From a bacterium (GTDB lineage Bacteria; SAR324; NAC60-12): DNA of 64,000 nucleotides. Under the pieces are notes generated by a model. It was not told where the DNA came from, searched no databases, and saw only the letters and a list, made by a program, of their open reading frames with translations. Positions 30,797 through 35,622 of this stretch are shown here, piece by piece (the first letter of the stretch is position 1; each line of letters begins with the position of its first letter). Location: NCBI GenBank assembly GCA_965233585.1, contig CBDDTI010000747.1, positions 736,001 to 800,000 of the forward strand, read 5' to 3'. A program made the translations under genes and the position numbers.

Positions 30797-31807
30797 ATGA
30801 AACATCTTTTTTTAGACCCGGATTACTGGAAAACTGCAACTGTGGCTTCTATCAAACAAGACCTTGCCAACGGGGCAGATTTAGAAATACAAGACCCACT
30901 CGGCTTGACTCCTTTGCACTTGGCAGCGACTTATAATGGACAGGAAGTGCTGAAGTTTCTCATCAACAACGGGGCAGATGTCAATGCAAGAACCAAAGAC
31001 GGCTTGACTCCTTTGCAAGCCGCTGCCTTTAACACTGGCACAGTAGAAGTGTTACAAGTTCTCATCAACAACGGGGCAGATGTCAATGCACAAACCCAAA
31101 ACGATATGACTCCTTTGCACGCAGCGGCTAGAAATAATCCCAATGCAGAAGTGGTGCAAGTTCTCATCAACAACGGGGCAGATGTCAATGCACGAGACAA
31201 CTACAGAGCGACTCCTTTGCACTTGGCAGCTGACAATAACCCCAATGTGGAAGTGGTGCAAGTGTTGCTTACCAACTGGGCAGATGTCAATGCACAAATC
31301 CAACAGAACAGCTACACTCCTTTACACTTGGCAGCTAGAAATAATCCCAATGCAGAAGTGGTGCAAGTGTTGCTTACCAACTGGGCAGATGTCAATGTAC
31401 AAGACGACGACAGCTACACTCCTTTGCACTTGGCAGCTAGAGATAATCCCAATGCAGAAGTATTGCAAGTTCTCATCAACAACGGGGCAGATGTCAATGT
31501 ACAAGACAAAGGCAACTGGACTCCTCTGCACTTCGCAGCGACATATAACCCCAAAGTAGAAGTGTTGGAGTTGTTGTTGAAGAATGGAGCGAATCTGGAA
31601 ACACGAACTGAAGGAGGCTGGACTCCTTTGCACTTAGCAGCTGGTGGGAACCCCAAAGTAGAAGTGTTGGAGTTGTTGTTGAAGAGTGGAGCAAATGTGA
31701 ATGCACGAGACGAAAACGGCAGGATTCCTTTGGACTTGATGGAGTATAACGAAAAATTGAAAGGCAGTGAGGTGTATTGGAAGTTGCACGATGCCAAATA
31801 CAATTAG
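30797..31807 (+). CDS. Ankyrin-repeat protein 1 (8 repeats plus caps, no signal peptide)
   Basis: TPLHxAA..GADVNA repeats; N-cap FLDPDYWKTAT; C-cap NEKLKGSEVYWKLHDAKYN. Confidence 0.95.
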   Translation: MKHLFLDPDYWKTATVASIKQDLANGADLEIQDPLGLTPLHLAATYNGQEVLKFLINNGADVNARTKDGLTPLQAAAFNTGTVEVLQVLINNGADVNAQTQNDMTPLHAAARNNPNAEVVQVLINNGADVNARDNYRATPLHLAADNNPNVEVVQVLLTNWADVNAQIQQNSYTPLHLAARNNPNAEVVQVLLTNWADVNVQDDDSYTPLHLAARDNPNAEVLQVLINNGADVNVQDKGNWTPLHFAATYNPKVEVLELLLKNGANLETRTEGGWTPLHLAAGGNPKVEVLELLLKSGANVNARDENGRIPLDLMEYNEKLKGSEVYWKLHDAKYN

Positions 31808-31873
31808 TGGGTGATGGTCTTGAGTCAAAAACATCACTCCTCAAAGGACTTTTTTTTGAGAGCTTTGAGGGAG
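31808..31873 (+). terminator. Two consecutive hairpins after ankyrin gene 1
   Basis: GTGATG...CATCAC, then CTCCTCAAAG...CTTTGAGGGAG. Confidence 0.45.
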
Positions 31874-31978
31874 GCAATCCATCAATTCCTAATCTTGACC
31901 AAATGACAAAAACGATCCATTTTTGAATTTCCAAACCTCCCTGTTTTTGTTAGACTGACCTTTTTCAAGGAATTTTTT

Positions 31979-32290
31979 ATGCCTATCGCCATCAATACAC
32001 TGGAATATGCCCGCTTGCTGATAGATTCAGGAGTAGAACAAAAACAAGCAGAAGCCCATGCTCTTACACTGGATAAAACGCTTAAAGAACATGTTCCCAG
32101 CAAAGAAGAACTCAAAGAAAGTCTTAAATCAGAGCTAGCAACTAAAGAAGACATCAGGCTTGTTAAAGAAGATATCAGGCTTGTTAAGATTGAGTTGAAC
32201 TCTAAAATAGACTCAACTCGTTGGTTACTAGGAGTTGTCATTTCACTCAATTTAGTGATGCTAGGAGTCATGTTGAGTCAGTTTTATTAA
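31979..32290 (+). CDS. DUF1640/CCDC90-like coiled-coil protein with C-terminal TM anchor
   Basis: NTLEYARLL..G....QAEA head, LATKED, 21-bp tandem repeat encoding KEDIRLV twice, terminal TM segment; RBS AAGGA. Confidence 0.8.
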   Translation: MPIAINTLEYARLLIDSGVEQKQAEAHALTLDKTLKEHVPSKEELKESLKSELATKEDIRLVKEDIRLVKIELNSKIDSTRWLLGVVISLNLVMLGVMLSQFY

Positions 32291-32358
32291 GAGCATCACC
32301 TCTTTTAATCCTATCTCCAAACTCAATTTTCCAATACCCACACCAACAATTTTGCCCT

Positions 32359-32649
32359 ATGTTTTTTAAAATAGAGGGGATTGATTTACAAGACCTAGAT
32401 TATCGCAAACGGAATCGGTCAATTCAAAGAGTCGGGGATTTTTATCGCCTCAATTTGGAGGCAAGAGGTATCAAAGACCGAGACACTGCTGTTCAGGTAG
32501 GTCTAAAAAGTGGCTGTTTGGACATCTCTCCATCAAGTCACCAGATGCCACACCTTCCAATAATTTTGTCTGAAGAATTAGGAAGGCGTGAGTTTTCAGA
32601 ATCTTCTAACCCTGATGTAGTGAAGCCACAAAAAAGACAACAAGCATGA
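32359..32649 (+). CDS. Possible small hypothetical ORF or decayed gene
   Basis: 96-aa open frame from ATG 32359; no recognisable family. Confidence 0.3.
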   Translation: MFFKIEGIDLQDLDYRKRNRSIQRVGDFYRLNLEARGIKDRDTAVQVGLKSGCLDISPSSHQMPHLPIILSEELGRREFSESSNPDVVKPQKRQQA

Positions 32650-32715
32650 CCCCTTCATTTTTCAACAAAGCATGACTCCTTCAATTCATTCACCCTTGAT
32701 TCATTAAAAGAAAAC

Positions 32716-33495
32716 ATGACGCATTTATCCTGCAACAAAATAACAATCCTTGCCTTCACCTTAGCAGTGATTCCTTTACAAACTCTATTGGCACAACAAT
32801 TCTTAAACCCTGTTTATTGGCAGACTGCTACAGTGGCGTCAGTGAAGCAACAGCTTGCCAAAGGAACAGATGTGAATGCACGAGACAAAGACGGCTTGAC
32901 TCCTTTGCACTTGGCAGCTTTAAACAACCCCAATAAAGAAGTGTTGGAGGTGTTGCTTGACAGAGGAGCGGAGCTGGAAGCACGGTCTGAAGGAGGATTC
33001 ACTCCTTTGCATTTAGCAGCTTTAAACAATCCCAATGAAGAAGTGTTGCAGATTTTGCTTGACAGAGGAGCAGAGCTGATACCACAAACTCAAGACGGTT
33101 GTACTCCTTTGCACTTTGCAGCTTGGAATAACCCCAATGAAGAAGTGTTGCAGATTTTGCTTGACAGAGGAGCAGATTTACACGCACGAACTCAAGCAGG
33201 CAGCACTCCTTTGCATTTGGCTGCTAGGCATCAGTCTAGGGCAGAAATGTTACAGATTCTACTTGACAGAGGAGCAGATTTACACGCACGAGACAAAAGC
33301 GGCTGGACTCCTTTGCACTCTGGGGCTAGGGATAGCGATAAAGCAGAAGTGTTAGAATTGTTATTGAAGAACGGGGCAAATTTAGAAGCACGAACCAAAG
33401 AAGGCTTGACTCCTTTGGATTTGATGGAAGAAAATGAAAACTTGAAAGGCAGTGAAATTTATCGGAAGTTGCACGATGCCAAATACAATCGCTGA
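32716..33495 (+). CDS. Ankyrin-repeat protein 2 (signal peptide, 5 repeats plus caps)
   Basis: Hydrophobic leader ending LLA-QQ; same caps as gene 1. Confidence 0.95.
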   Translation: MTHLSCNKITILAFTLAVIPLQTLLAQQFLNPVYWQTATVASVKQQLAKGTDVNARDKDGLTPLHLAALNNPNKEVLEVLLDRGAELEARSEGGFTPLHLAALNNPNEEVLQILLDRGAELIPQTQDGCTPLHFAAWNNPNEEVLQILLDRGADLHARTQAGSTPLHLAARHQSRAEMLQILLDRGADLHARDKSGWTPLHSGARDSDKAEVLELLLKNGANLEARTKEGLTPLDLMEENENLKGSEIYRKLHDAKYNR

Positions 33496-33552
33496 CACGA
33501 GGGTCTTGGCTTAAAACAAACTTTCTTTTTGAAAACTTTCAAGAACAACCTC

Positions 33553-33600
33553 TTCAAAGAATTGATTGATTATTTTACCTCACTTTTCTAACCTAGTCTG
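33553..33600 (+). repeat. Conserved 48-bp intergenic element, copy 1
   Basis: 41/48 identical to 34556-34603. Confidence 0.85.
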
Positions 33601-33682
33601 CTTTGACAAAATCCCTTTGTCACTTGAATGCTAAACACAGAATCCCAAAATCATTAAACTTTGATTCATTAAGAAGAAAAAC

Positions 33683-34486
33683 ATGACGCATTTTTTAGAC
33701 CTTGATTATTGGCGGACTGCCACAGTGGCATCAGTCAAACAACAGCTTGACAACGGAACAGATCTGGAGGCACGAGATGAGGAAGGCGGGACGCCTTTGC
33801 ACTTCGCAGCTGCTAAGAGCGAGAAAGCAGAAGTGTTGCAGTTGTTGATAGACAACGGAGCAAATGTGAATGCACTAGAAAAAGACGACTGGACGCCTTT
33901 GCACTCTGGGGCTGAGGGTAACCCCAATGTGGAAGTGTTGGAGGTGTTGATAGACAACGGAGCAAATGTGAATGCACGAGACAAACACGGCTTGACGCCT
34001 TTGCACGCAGCGGCTGGGAGTAATGAAAAAGCAGAGGTGTCAGGGTTTTTAATAGCCAACGGAGCCAATCTGGATGTCAAACACAAAAGGGGAGGGACGC
34101 CTTTGCACTTTGCCGCTCTTGGCAACGTAGGAGCAGAAGTTTTGCAGGTGTTGATAGACAATGGGGCAAATCTGGAGGCAAAAGACCAAAGTGGAGGGAC
34201 ACCTTTGCACATAGCCGCTTCTAGTAACACCCAATTAGAAGTGTTTCAGGTGTTGATAAAGAGTGGAGCGAATCTGGAGGCAACAAACAAAAAAAGAGGA
34301 ACGCCTTTGCACATGGCAGCTGGACTGACCTGCAAAGAGGAAGTGCTGCAGTTTTTGATAGACAACGGGGCAAACCTGAAGGCACGGTCTATCTCAGGAG
34401 AGACGCCTTTGGACGTGCTAGAACGTAATGACAAATTGAAAGGCACTGCAATTTATTGGCAGCTGCAAAATGCCAGACACAACTGA
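33683..34486 (+). CDS. Ankyrin-repeat protein 3 (6 repeats plus caps, no signal peptide)
   Basis: FLDLDYWRTAT N-cap; TPLH repeats; NDKLKGTAIYWQL C-cap. Confidence 0.95.
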   Translation: MTHFLDLDYWRTATVASVKQQLDNGTDLEARDEEGGTPLHFAAAKSEKAEVLQLLIDNGANVNALEKDDWTPLHSGAEGNPNVEVLEVLIDNGANVNARDKHGLTPLHAAAGSNEKAEVSGFLIANGANLDVKHKRGGTPLHFAALGNVGAEVLQVLIDNGANLEAKDQSGGTPLHIAASSNTQLEVFQVLIKSGANLEATNKKRGTPLHMAAGLTCKEEVLQFLIDNGANLKARSISGETPLDVLERNDKLKGTAIYWQLQNARHN

Positions 34487-34555
34487 TGAACAGCAACCTT
34501 GAATCACACATCACCCCTATTTCAAAAATTCATAGTCAAATGTTTCAAGAATGGA

Positions 34556-34603
34556 TTCAAAGAATTGATGGATTTCTTTATCTCATTTTTCTAGCCCAGT
34601 CTG
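34556..34603 (+). repeat. Conserved 48-bp intergenic element, copy 2
   Basis: 41/48 identical to 33553-33600. Confidence 0.85.
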
Positions 34604-34638
34604 TTCTTGAAGATTGAAAATGCTCAAATGATTGTCCT

Positions 34639-34666
34639 TTGCAACATCAGCAAATCCTGTTACAAT
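34639..34666 (+). promoter_or_regulatory. Putative promoter of ankyrin gene 4
   Basis: TTGCAA-16 nt-TACAAT with an extended -10 (TGtTACAAT). Confidence 0.45.
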
Positions 34667-34713
34667 TTGCAGTCTTCAAAATCATTAAACCTTGATTCCT
34701 CAAAAGCAAAAAC

Positions 34714-35622
34714 ATGACGCCTTCATCTTTCAGCAGAACATTCAATAAATCATTGTTTTTCCTCTTCACCCTATTAGTCATTCCTTTCCAAATCCTATTG
34801 GCACAACAATTTTTAAATTTTAGCTATTGGCAGACTGCGACAGCAGCGTCAGTCAAACAAGACCTTGCCAATGGAGCGAGTCTTGAGGTACAAGATAAAG
34901 ACGGCTGGACTCCTCTGCACTATGCGGCGATGTATCACCCCAAAGCAGAAGTGTTGAAGGTGTTGCTTGCCAATGGGGCAAATGTGAATGCACGGGCTAA
35001 AGACAGTGGGACTCCTTTGCACTATGCCGCTTTAAATAATCCCCAAGCGGAAGTGCTAAAGGTGTTGCTAGAAAATGGAGCAGAGCTGGAAGCACGAACT
35101 GAAACAGGAGAGACGCCTTTGCACGCAGCAGCTAGGTATAGCGAACAGCCAGAAGTGTTGAAGGTGTTGCTAGAAAGTGGAGCGAATTTGGAAGCACGTG
35201 ATGAAAACGGCTGGACTCCTTTGCATGCAGCAGCTAGGTATAATGTCAACCCAGAAGTGTTGAAAGTGTTGCTAGGAAATGGAGCAAATCTGGAGGCACG
35301 AACTCAAGACAGCTTGACTCCTTTGCACCATGCGGCTTTAAATCCCCAAGCAGAAGTATTGAGTGCGTTGATAGCTAATGGGGCGAATTTGGAAGCACGT
35401 AGTGAAAACGACTGGACTCCTTTGCACTATGCGGCTGGATTGAGTTCCAAAGAAGAAGTATTGAAGTTTTTGATAGCCAGAGGAGCAAATCTGGAAGTAC
35501 GAACCAAAGAAGGTTGGACTATTTTAGATTTGATAAAGAACAATGAAAACTTGAAAGGCAGTGAGATTTATCTGAAGTTGTTGAGTTTGAATCAAGTGCC
35601 AACGTCATCCCAAGGGTATTGA
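34714..35622 (+). CDS. Ankyrin-repeat protein 4 (signal peptide, 6 repeats plus caps)
   Basis: Leader ending LLA-QQ; TPLH repeats; 3' end overlaps the convergent gene by 31 nt. Confidence 0.95.
   Translation: MTPSSFSRTFNKSLFFLFTLLVIPFQILLAQQFLNFSYWQTATAASVKQDLANGASLEVQDKDGWTPLHYAAMYHPKAEVLKVLLANGANVNARAKDSGTPLHYAALNNPQAEVLKVLLENGAELEARTETGETPLHAAARYSEQPEVLKVLLESGANLEARDENGWTPLHAAARYNVNPEVLKVLLGNGANLEARTQDSLTPLHHAALNPQAEVLSALIANGANLEARSENDWTPLHYAAGLSSKEEVLKFLIARGANLEVRTKEGWTILDLIKNNENLKGSEIYLKLLSLNQVPTSSQGY

What the first reader, a model, noticed from the sequence alone, without database searches (positions are those of the whole stretch)
30797..35622. Tandem array of four natural DARPin-like ankyrin genes: shared caps and variable binding positions
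Seen: four paralogs share an N-cap (FLxxxYWxTATxASxKQxLxxG) and a C-cap (LDxxxxNxxLKGxxxY). Between them are 8, 5, 6 and 6 repeats, mostly 34 aa. The scaffold (TPLH.AA, EV...L...GA) is fixed, while the residues before TPLH and after AA change in nearly every repeat. Each gene has its own DNA repeat signature: CTCATCAACAACGGGGCAGAT, CTTGACAGAGGAGC, ATAGACAACGGAGC and CTAGAAAATGGAGC. WTPLHSGA is shared between genes 2 and 3. Established: these positions form the ankyrin binding surface randomised in DARPin libraries, and expanded ankyrin families are common in host-associated bacteria. Inference: a binder repertoire diversified by recombination (intragenic amplification plus repeat swapping), acting on host, predator or phage targets. 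This is the best candidate for an undescribed system here.
Basis: partly seen in the sequence, partly recalled or inferred. Interest (0 to 1): 0.78.

Follow-up and report, generated by a model that had tools for sequence, protein, structure and literature searches.

The report
Tandem capped ankyrin binder genes
Four neighbouring ankyrin-repeat genes of a likely SAR324 bacterium belong to a capped ankyrin family spread over many bacterial phyla; their predicted binding positions change fast, their repeats were likely reshuffled by recombination, and they likely bind proteins of a eukaryotic host, a pattern already known from other symbionts.

Summary
In detail: four intact ankyrin genes with 8, 5, 6 and 6 repeats and shared caps. 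The caps are not private to the array. Four more capped genes sit elsewhere in this genome. The C-cap occurs in 29 other genomes of 9 named phyla and has no Pfam or PDB model. Genes 2 and 4 have signal-peptide-like leaders; genes 1 and 3 do not. Repeats cluster mostly by gene, and sub-repeat recombination is supported. Predicted interface codons change about 1.8 times faster than neutral, but positive selection cannot be told from short-tract replacement. The variability profile is the family's norm (rho 0.84). Repeats are old (at most 84% identical), no diversifying machinery was found, and low-depth runs show no variants. Verdict: tandem expansion of host-facing symbiont ankyrins, as in Wolbachia and sponge symbionts, not a new system. 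The cap-defined family itself appears undescribed.

The parts
30797..31807 (+). g1: capped ankyrin protein, 336 aa, 8 repeats, no leader; the most clearly mosaic gene
32716..33495 (+). g2: capped ankyrin protein, 259 aa, 5 repeats, predicted signal peptide (residues 1-26)
33683..34486 (+). g3: capped ankyrin protein, 267 aa, 6 repeats, no leader (likely lost by deletion)
34714..35622 (+). g4: capped ankyrin protein, 302 aa, 6 repeats, predicted signal peptide (residues 1-30)
32716..32793 (+). hydrophobic leader of g2 (predicted Sec signal peptide; hydropathy test only)
34714..34803 (+). hydrophobic leader of g4 (predicted Sec signal peptide; hydropathy test only)
30806..30886 (+). N-cap of g1 (g2 32800-32880, g3 33692-33772, g4 34810-34890); two helices in the g3 model
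31706..31801 (+). C-cap of g1 (g2 33391-33486, g3 34385-34480, g4 35500-35595); family-defining, no Pfam model, distal half unmatched in PDB
33646..33693 (+). upstream and start segment of g3, homologous to those of g2 (32683-32726, 87%) and g4 (34677-34723, 85%): whole-gene tandem duplication
31979..32290 (+). 103-aa coiled-coil ORF between g1 and g2; weak CCDC90-like hit, 25 other tblastn matches in the genome; likely unrelated to the array

Best explanation
The four genes are tandem paralogues of a widespread capped ankyrin family, likely expanded by whole-gene duplication, repeat amplification and short-tract recombination, and they likely act as binders of eukaryotic host proteins that help the bacterium persist in a host. 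Shown: shared caps and upstream DNA, gene-wise repeat clustering, mosaic repeats in g1, about 1.8-fold faster change at predicted interface codons, two leader-bearing and two leaderless copies. Inferred: ordinary homologous recombination does the reshuffling, with no dedicated enzyme; g2 and g4 are exported through Sec and perhaps type II secretion; g1 and g3 stay cytoplasmic or act on release; different paralogues bind different targets; the effect is on phagocytosis or immune signalling, by analogy with sponge-symbiont ankyrins.
For: Family: 31 of 33 pattern hits in GTDB genomes lie in open frames, 29 of the 31 with ankyrin repeats in frame. They come from 29 genomes and 9 named phyla. The cap profile finds 1,574 50%-cluster representatives; 145 of the best 150 have the full cap, and 24 of 26 complete N-capped ones have a hydrophobic leader. 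Distribution is patchy: 3 of 64 genomes of the order match, one of them doubtful, and there are only 6 hits in JGI metagenomes. A transposase or integrase flanks 8 of 30 loci and no partner gene recurs. Host context: about 9 Mb of the 12 Mb assembly is low-coding-density, retroelement-rich DNA. Evolution. Fold: AF2 pLDDT 84, TM 0.85-0.88 to DARPin and ankyrin chains. Literature: symbionts are enriched in ANK proteins (PMC3932732, abstract). Symbiont and phage ankyrins alter phagocytosis (PMC13747020, parts 1-2 of 3; 10.1101/608950, passages). Wolbachia ANK genes expand, recombine and form four-gene clusters (PMC3563639, abstract; PMC2515876, passages).
Against: No target, expression or localisation data. 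Co-binned eukaryote DNA shows a host-rich sample, not that this bacterium is a symbiont. Habitats of the family's genomes were not looked up; that these lineages are sponge symbionts is recalled. Two of four genes have no export leader, and no T6SS sheath gene was found (genome 92% complete). The GspE-like hit is under its cut-off (605.6 vs 630.25). A model that speeds all changes at interface codons fits better than one that raises omega alone (lnL -1743.85 vs -1746.34; omega 1.06 with both free). The 12-repeat paralogue elsewhere shows no excess (omega 1.08). Whether the tested sponge ankyrins carry these caps could not be checked. The transposase count has no background control.
Confidence: 0.55

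Rival explanations
1. Self-protection or immunity proteins: periplasmic (g2, g4) and cytoplasmic (g1, g3) inhibitors of the cell's own or competitors' enzymes or toxins, like Bdellovibrio Bd3460; the array would be a bank of immunity specificities.
For: Bd3460 is an ankyrin self-protection protein (PMC4686830, abstract). A Sec leader alone delivers only to the periplasm (established). The split into exported and cytoplasmic copies and the fast-changing face fit an inhibitor bank.
Against: No toxin or endopeptidase lies beside the array, beside the paralogues at C745:254 kb and C746:225 kb, or recurs among 70 neighbours from 30 family loci (about half of them had no Pfam hit). PADLOC hits cover only generic ankyrin stretches.
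Confidence: 0.2
2. Neutral or relaxed expansion: repeat slippage and duplication in a drifting host-associated genome, with exposed residues simply unconstrained and no selected repertoire.
For: Omega at interface codons is not different from 1 when their synonymous rate is free. Counting gives pN/pS 0.95 within genes. Exposed non-interface omega is about 1.2. Another small gene family is also much expanded in this genome.
Against: All four frames are intact with core omega 0.22. Interface codons exceed exposed non-interface codons (LRT 9.2) and all 54 neutral simulations.
Confidence: 0.2
3. A dedicated, ongoing diversifying system (DGR-like or cassette shuffling) that generates a binder library within populations.
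For: Mosaic repeats and fast interface change.
Against: No near-identical template copy of the repeats in the genome; outside matches are 63-83% identical, to one paralogue. The one RT hit on the large bacterial contigs is most like antiviral Drt4. No recombinase adjoins the array. Repeats reach at most 84% identity, under the 85% line used for hypervariable fungal ANK repeats (PMC4986451, passages). The same signal occurs in an unrelated single gene (L029).
Confidence: 0.05

Closest known systems
Ankyrin eukaryotic-like proteins of sponge symbionts (SSA4, ELP1) and Ankyphage ANKp
   Same: Stand-alone ankyrin-repeat proteins of marine bacteria or their phages; two Ankyphage ANKs have signal peptides; shown to alter phagocytosis (PMC13747020; 10.1101/608950).
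   Different: Function untested here. Cap identity with those proteins not testable (only primers in the supplement). The cap pattern had 0 hits in IMG/VR. Host taxon not established.
Wolbachia ANK gene family (wPip ANK38-41, four adjacent genes)
   Same: Adjacent ANK paralogues alike in their non-repeat parts; expansion and contraction of repeats; intragenic recombination (PMC2515876; PMC3563639).
   Different: Different lineage and caps; predicted Sec leaders on two genes; only one VirB4, on a plasmid-like contig; 34-aa repeats.
Fungal NLR ANK, TPR and WD repeat domains (Podospora)
   Same: Concerted evolution of repeats with diversification on the concave face and hairpin (PMC4986451).
   Different: No NOD or effector domain; repeats 68-72% identical on average instead of over 85%; no repeat-number polymorphism shown.
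DARPins (designed)
   Same: N-cap, stacked repeats, C-cap; same fold (TM 0.85); variable positions overlap the randomised ones (positions recalled).
   Different: DARPins are synthetic consensus proteins drawn from natural ankyrins, so the likeness is expected. Repeat 34 vs 33 aa; the distal C-cap half has no match among DARPin chains.
Bdellovibrio Bd3460
   Same: Stand-alone bacterial ankyrin acting as a protein binder (PMC4686830, abstract).
   Different: No cognate endopeptidase beside the array; sequence relationship not tested.

Membership tests
Ankyrin repeat proteins (PF00023 clan) | Tandem TPLH helix-turn-helix repeats above Pfam cut-off | tested here: met
   fold
Capped 34-aa ankyrin family (defined here) | C-cap P-x-D-x4-N-x2-LKG-[ST]-x2-YW-x-L or close variant | tested here: met
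   All four genes score E 7e-16 to 3e-12 with profile A1, but they are 4 of its 31 rows; g1 alone is 34-56% identical to the 27 foreign rows
Capped 34-aa ankyrin family (defined here) | N-cap of aromatic-aromatic-x2-AT-x3-V-x3-L-x2-G type and mostly 34-aa repeats | tested here: met
   47 of 150 representatives match a strict N-cap expression (many are fragments)
Capped 34-aa ankyrin family (defined here) | Hydrophobic export leader | tested here: inconclusive
   Present in g2 and g4, absent in g1 and g3; hydropathy only, no SignalP
Symbiont ankyrin eukaryotic-like proteins | Encoded by a host-associated bacterium | tested here: inconclusive
   About 9 Mb of eukaryote-like contigs co-binned; lifestyle not shown
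Symbiont ankyrin eukaryotic-like proteins | Alters host phagocytosis or immune signalling | not testable with these tools
   needs bench assay
Symbiont ankyrin eukaryotic-like proteins | Sequence kinship with SSA4, ELP1 or ANKp beyond generic repeats | not testable with these tools
   sequences not in the supplement read
Legionella and Coxiella Dot/Icm Ank effectors | NCBIfam equivalog cut-offs | tested here: not met
   g1 and g4 tested; best 146 bits against a cut-off of 600
Diversity-generating retroelement | Near-identical template repeat plus DGR reverse transcriptase | tested here: not met
Hypervariable concerted repeat arrays (fungal NLR type) | Internal repeat identity above 85% | tested here: not met
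   maximum 84% DNA identity, mean 68-72%; the paper's criterion is on protein
Hypervariable concerted repeat arrays (fungal NLR type) | Positive selection on interface positions | tested here: inconclusive
   omega 1.8 with shared dS; 1.06 with free class rate
Hypervariable concerted repeat arrays (fungal NLR type) | Repeat-number polymorphism among isolates | tested here: inconclusive
   No variant in contigs of 4 runs from at most 2 samples at depth 2-7; no other genome of the genus listed
Bd3460-type self-protection ankyrins | Adjacent cognate enzyme or toxin | tested here: not met
   Neighbours are an FMN-dependent dehydrogenase and an Omp85-like protein

The most novel reading that the evidence does not exclude
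The caps define an undescribed, horizontally spread ankyrin binder cassette of marine host-associated bacteria across ten phyla. Fixed caps frame a repeat stack whose binding face is renewed by sub-repeat recombination under positive selection, giving natural binder libraries against host proteins; this array is a local library with paired exported and cytoplasmic versions.
Probability: 0.2. Interest if true: 0.65.

Novelty: new member of a known kind. Interest (0 to 1): 0.32.

Why it matters
Ankyrin proteins of marine symbionts are usually counted only as Pfam hits. A conserved cap pair gives a handle to treat many of them as one family, follow its transfer between phyla and pick members for target identification, which bears on how symbionts avoid digestion by their hosts. 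It also places such genes in a likely SAR324 lineage and offers natural caps for a 34-aa repeat scaffold. The array itself is an expected product of known processes.

Tried and rejected
Close orthologues for allele comparison: none found. The g3 search returned at most 45% identity and missed the window's own genes, so it is insensitive. The g2 leader-plus-cap search had no candidates. The neighbour-gene scan of JGI metagenomes found nothing. A sister organism exists (Ffh 88%, P0122) but its DNA could not be fetched. Read variation: no RNA holder listed. Contigs of 4 runs showed no array variants; the differences listed come from a paralogue of the 103-aa gene and from g2 laid on g1; depth is too low to count as evidence. 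Scaffold-half-only homogenisation as a source of the omega excess: not supported, synonymous differences are 0.27 and 0.29 in the two halves. A simple (g1 g2)->(g3 g4) block duplication: cap comparisons are incongruent and have too few informative sites. PHI within g3 and g4 alone was not significant (p 0.39, 0.23). Functional link to the Omp85-like neighbour: rejected; it is convergent and occurs in 35 of 40 family genomes, while a cap match occurs in 1 of 44 family genomes and that one is doubtful. Synteny of the flanks could not be settled. Phage origin: 0 hits in viral contigs with one strict pattern. The family tree was a quick run on 66 columns; g1-g5 group with SH-aLRT 94, mostly unresolved elsewhere, so no donor is claimed. 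Promoter and terminator scan uninformative. ESM Atlas gave only generic ankyrin clusters. Literature: no description of the caps in searches (open-access library only). No complex prediction was run, for lack of a candidate partner.
Full report
Observation. The four ORFs are intact and on the + strand, with 8, 5, 6 and 6 ankyrin repeats, 22 of 25 being 34 aa. Both caps are present in all four. A 103-aa coiled-coil gene of a much-expanded family lies between g1 and g2. A single-sequence AlphaFold model of g3 (pLDDT 84; 1 of 5 models confident) shows two-helix caps on a regular stack and matches DARPin and ankyrin chains at TM 0.85-0.88.

Organism. The best named Ffh relatives are SAR324 cluster bacteria at 62-64% identity, and one unnamed relative is at 88%. 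No other genome of the genus was listed among relatives. The 12-Mb assembly holds about 2.95 Mb on six gene-dense contigs and about 9 Mb of mostly low-coding, retroelement-rich DNA. That points to a host-rich sample but does not prove symbiosis. An earlier unchecked note (e1-9815909) calls one such contig coral-like; I checked only that eukaryote-like contigs exist. Secretion genes found: two secretins, a GspE-like ATPase just under cut-off, one FHIPEP protein not resolved between flagellum and injectisome, one VirB4 on a plasmid-like contig, and no VipB.

The caps mark a large family. Eight capped genes are in this genome. Twelve of 120 listed homologues of g3 were flagged for an N-cap-like motif, and many of the 21 I read carry both caps. 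A strict C-cap DNA pattern hit 33 places in GTDB genomes; 31 are in open frames and 29 of those have ankyrin repeats in frame. They come from 29 genomes: Pseudomonadota, Acidobacteriota, Binatota, Deinococcota, Latescibacterota, Nitrospinota, Rhodothermota, Thermodesulfobacteriota, Chloroflexota and three unclassified. That many of these lineages are sponge symbionts is my recall. The same pattern had 6 hits in JGI metagenomes and none in viral contigs. A 32-column cap profile found 1,574 cluster representatives at E<=0.001 and 335 at 1e-10. I checked only the best 150: 145 have the full cap. The tail may include generic ankyrins, since the first half of the profile also matches DARPins. No Pfam family matched the cap and none of the 60 PDB matches shown covers its distal half. 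In the order, 3 of 64 genomes match, one doubtfully. Six of 31 loci hold further ankyrin ORFs, including three capped genes within about 5 kb (L037) and an adjacent pair (L048). Among 70 of 122 candidate neighbours scanned from 30 loci, no partner recurs, and 8 loci have a transposase or integrase (no background control).

Evolution of the repeats. Mean DNA identity is 68-72% within genes and 63-67% between them, with maxima of 84% and 78%. All 12 exact tracts of 30 bp or more are within a gene, 9 in g1; the longest between genes are 27 and 26 bp. Segments upstream of g2, g3 and g4 are homologous (85-87%), which indicates whole-gene duplication. In the tree, g1 repeats 1-6 are set apart (98), g2 repeats 1-4 group (81), g3 and g4 group weakly (54, 50), and the last repeats of g1 and g2 group (87). 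Synonymous differences are lower within genes in both repeat halves (permutation p<=0.003). A PHI-type test gives p=0.001 for all 25 repeats and for g1, but is not significant for g3 or g4; 1 of 100 no-recombination simulations reached p<=0.005. In g1 the mosaic is visible: repeat 5 shares one tract with repeat 3 and another with repeat 4. Evidence for swapping between genes is thin: the 18-bp tract shared by g2 and g3, and incongruent cap similarities.

Selection. The column-wise variability of the array follows that of 85 repeats from 22 foreign family genes (rho 0.84) and is slightly lower, so fixed scaffold with variable face is no special sign. With a shared synonymous rate, interface codons have omega 1.8, exposed non-interface 1.16 and core 0.22 (LRT p about 1e-4). 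The six DARPin-randomised positions alone (recalled; I added column 10 for the seven-site class) give 1.79. The observed LRT of 14.3 exceeds all 54 null simulations (maximum 3.9). Against this, a model that speeds all changes at those codons fits better, omega falls to 1.06 with both free, and omega does not differ from 1 when estimated on those codons alone. Interface codons therefore change about 1.8 times faster, by positive selection, short-tract replacement or both. Of 8 single genes tested, g1 (2.52) and the foreign gene in L029 (3.3) show the excess at p<0.01; the 12-repeat paralogue does not.

No dedicated machinery or present-day variation. There is no near-identical template copy of the repeats. 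The single RT match on the large bacterial contigs is Drt4-like. Flanking genes are an FMN-dependent dehydrogenase and a convergent Omp85-like protein. Contigs of four runs from at most two samples match the array without variants, at depth 2-7, which is too low to weigh.

Mechanism. Most likely a capped ankyrin gene was gained or kept by this lineage, duplicated in tandem, lost its leader in two copies, and had its repeats amplified and reshuffled by ordinary recombination, with the binding face diverging fastest. Export of g2 and g4, binding of host proteins and an effect on phagocytosis are inferred from analogy. The rivals are self-protection or immunity proteins, neutral expansion, and a dedicated diversifier.

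Known kinds, and what I read. PMC2515876 (passages): four adjacent Wolbachia ANK genes alike in their non-repeat parts. PMC3563639 (abstract): repeat expansion, contraction and intragenic recombination in Wolbachia ANK genes. PMC4986451 (passages): concerted evolution and positive selection on the ANK binding face in fungal NLRs. PMC13747020 (parts 1-2 of 3, supplement searched): single symbiont ankyrins change uptake by a sponge. 10.1101/608950 (passages; its supplements were closed and may hold the ANKp sequence needed for a cap test). PMC3932732 and PMC4686830 (abstracts). PMC9868349 (passages): ankyrin proteins and SAR324 genomes in coral skeleton microbiomes. Nguyen et al. 2014 was seen only as cited in these. 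Ten searches found no description of the caps, in an open-access library only.

Verdict. The array is a new member of a known kind: tandemly expanded, recombining ankyrin binders of likely host-associated bacteria. The part worth keeping is the cap-defined, cross-phylum family without a model or structure. Interest 0.32.

Noticed in passing
G000 whole assembly: About 2.95 Mb on six gene-dense contigs plus about 9.05 Mb of mostly low-coding-density, retroelement-rich eukaryote-like contigs, although marker contamination reads 2%. An earlier unchecked note calls one such contig coral-like.
   Followed up: partly
G000:C745:254101-255588; C746:199896-200693, 225178-225822, 225858-226436: Four more capped ankyrin genes, all with leader-like N-termini; one has 12 repeats, two are adjacent, one has almost no repeats between its caps.
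   Followed up: yes
G000:C747:1060834-1068537: A second, different ankyrin cluster: two leader-bearing proteins with near-identical repeats and internally repeated caps, flanking a 973-aa ankyrin protein with a long non-ankyrin C-terminal part. Its repeats look far more alike than those of the array, so it is a better candidate for active repeat turnover.
   Followed up: no
window:31979-32290 and 25 other places: Expanded family of about 100-aa coiled-coil proteins (weak CCDC90-like hit), including four copies at C747:983-989 kb and a 90%-identical 5' segment on C109.
   Followed up: partly
G000:C109 (36 kb): Plasmid-like contig with a VirB4 match and ORFs that look by eye like topoisomerase, primase, ParA and conjugation genes.
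   Followed up: partly
L072:3880-6913: Drt4-like antiviral reverse transcriptase (384 bits, cut-off 450) next to a type I restriction specificity subunit and a YhcG nuclease.
   Followed up: partly
window:2636-4117: 493-aa RCC1-repeat protein, another eukaryotic-like repeat class.
   Followed up: no
window:35592-36896: Omp85-like outer-membrane protein without a Pfam hit; multi-copy family in 35 of 40 related genomes; overlaps the end of g4 by 31 bp.
   Followed up: partly
L027, L031, L046 and P0110: Some family members carry a conserved cysteine-rich domain behind the C-cap.
   Followed up: no
L004, L005, L006 (G021, G026, G023): Small (1.6-3.0 Mb), near-closed genomes of the same order carry leader-bearing ankyrins with degenerate versions of the caps.
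   Followed up: partly
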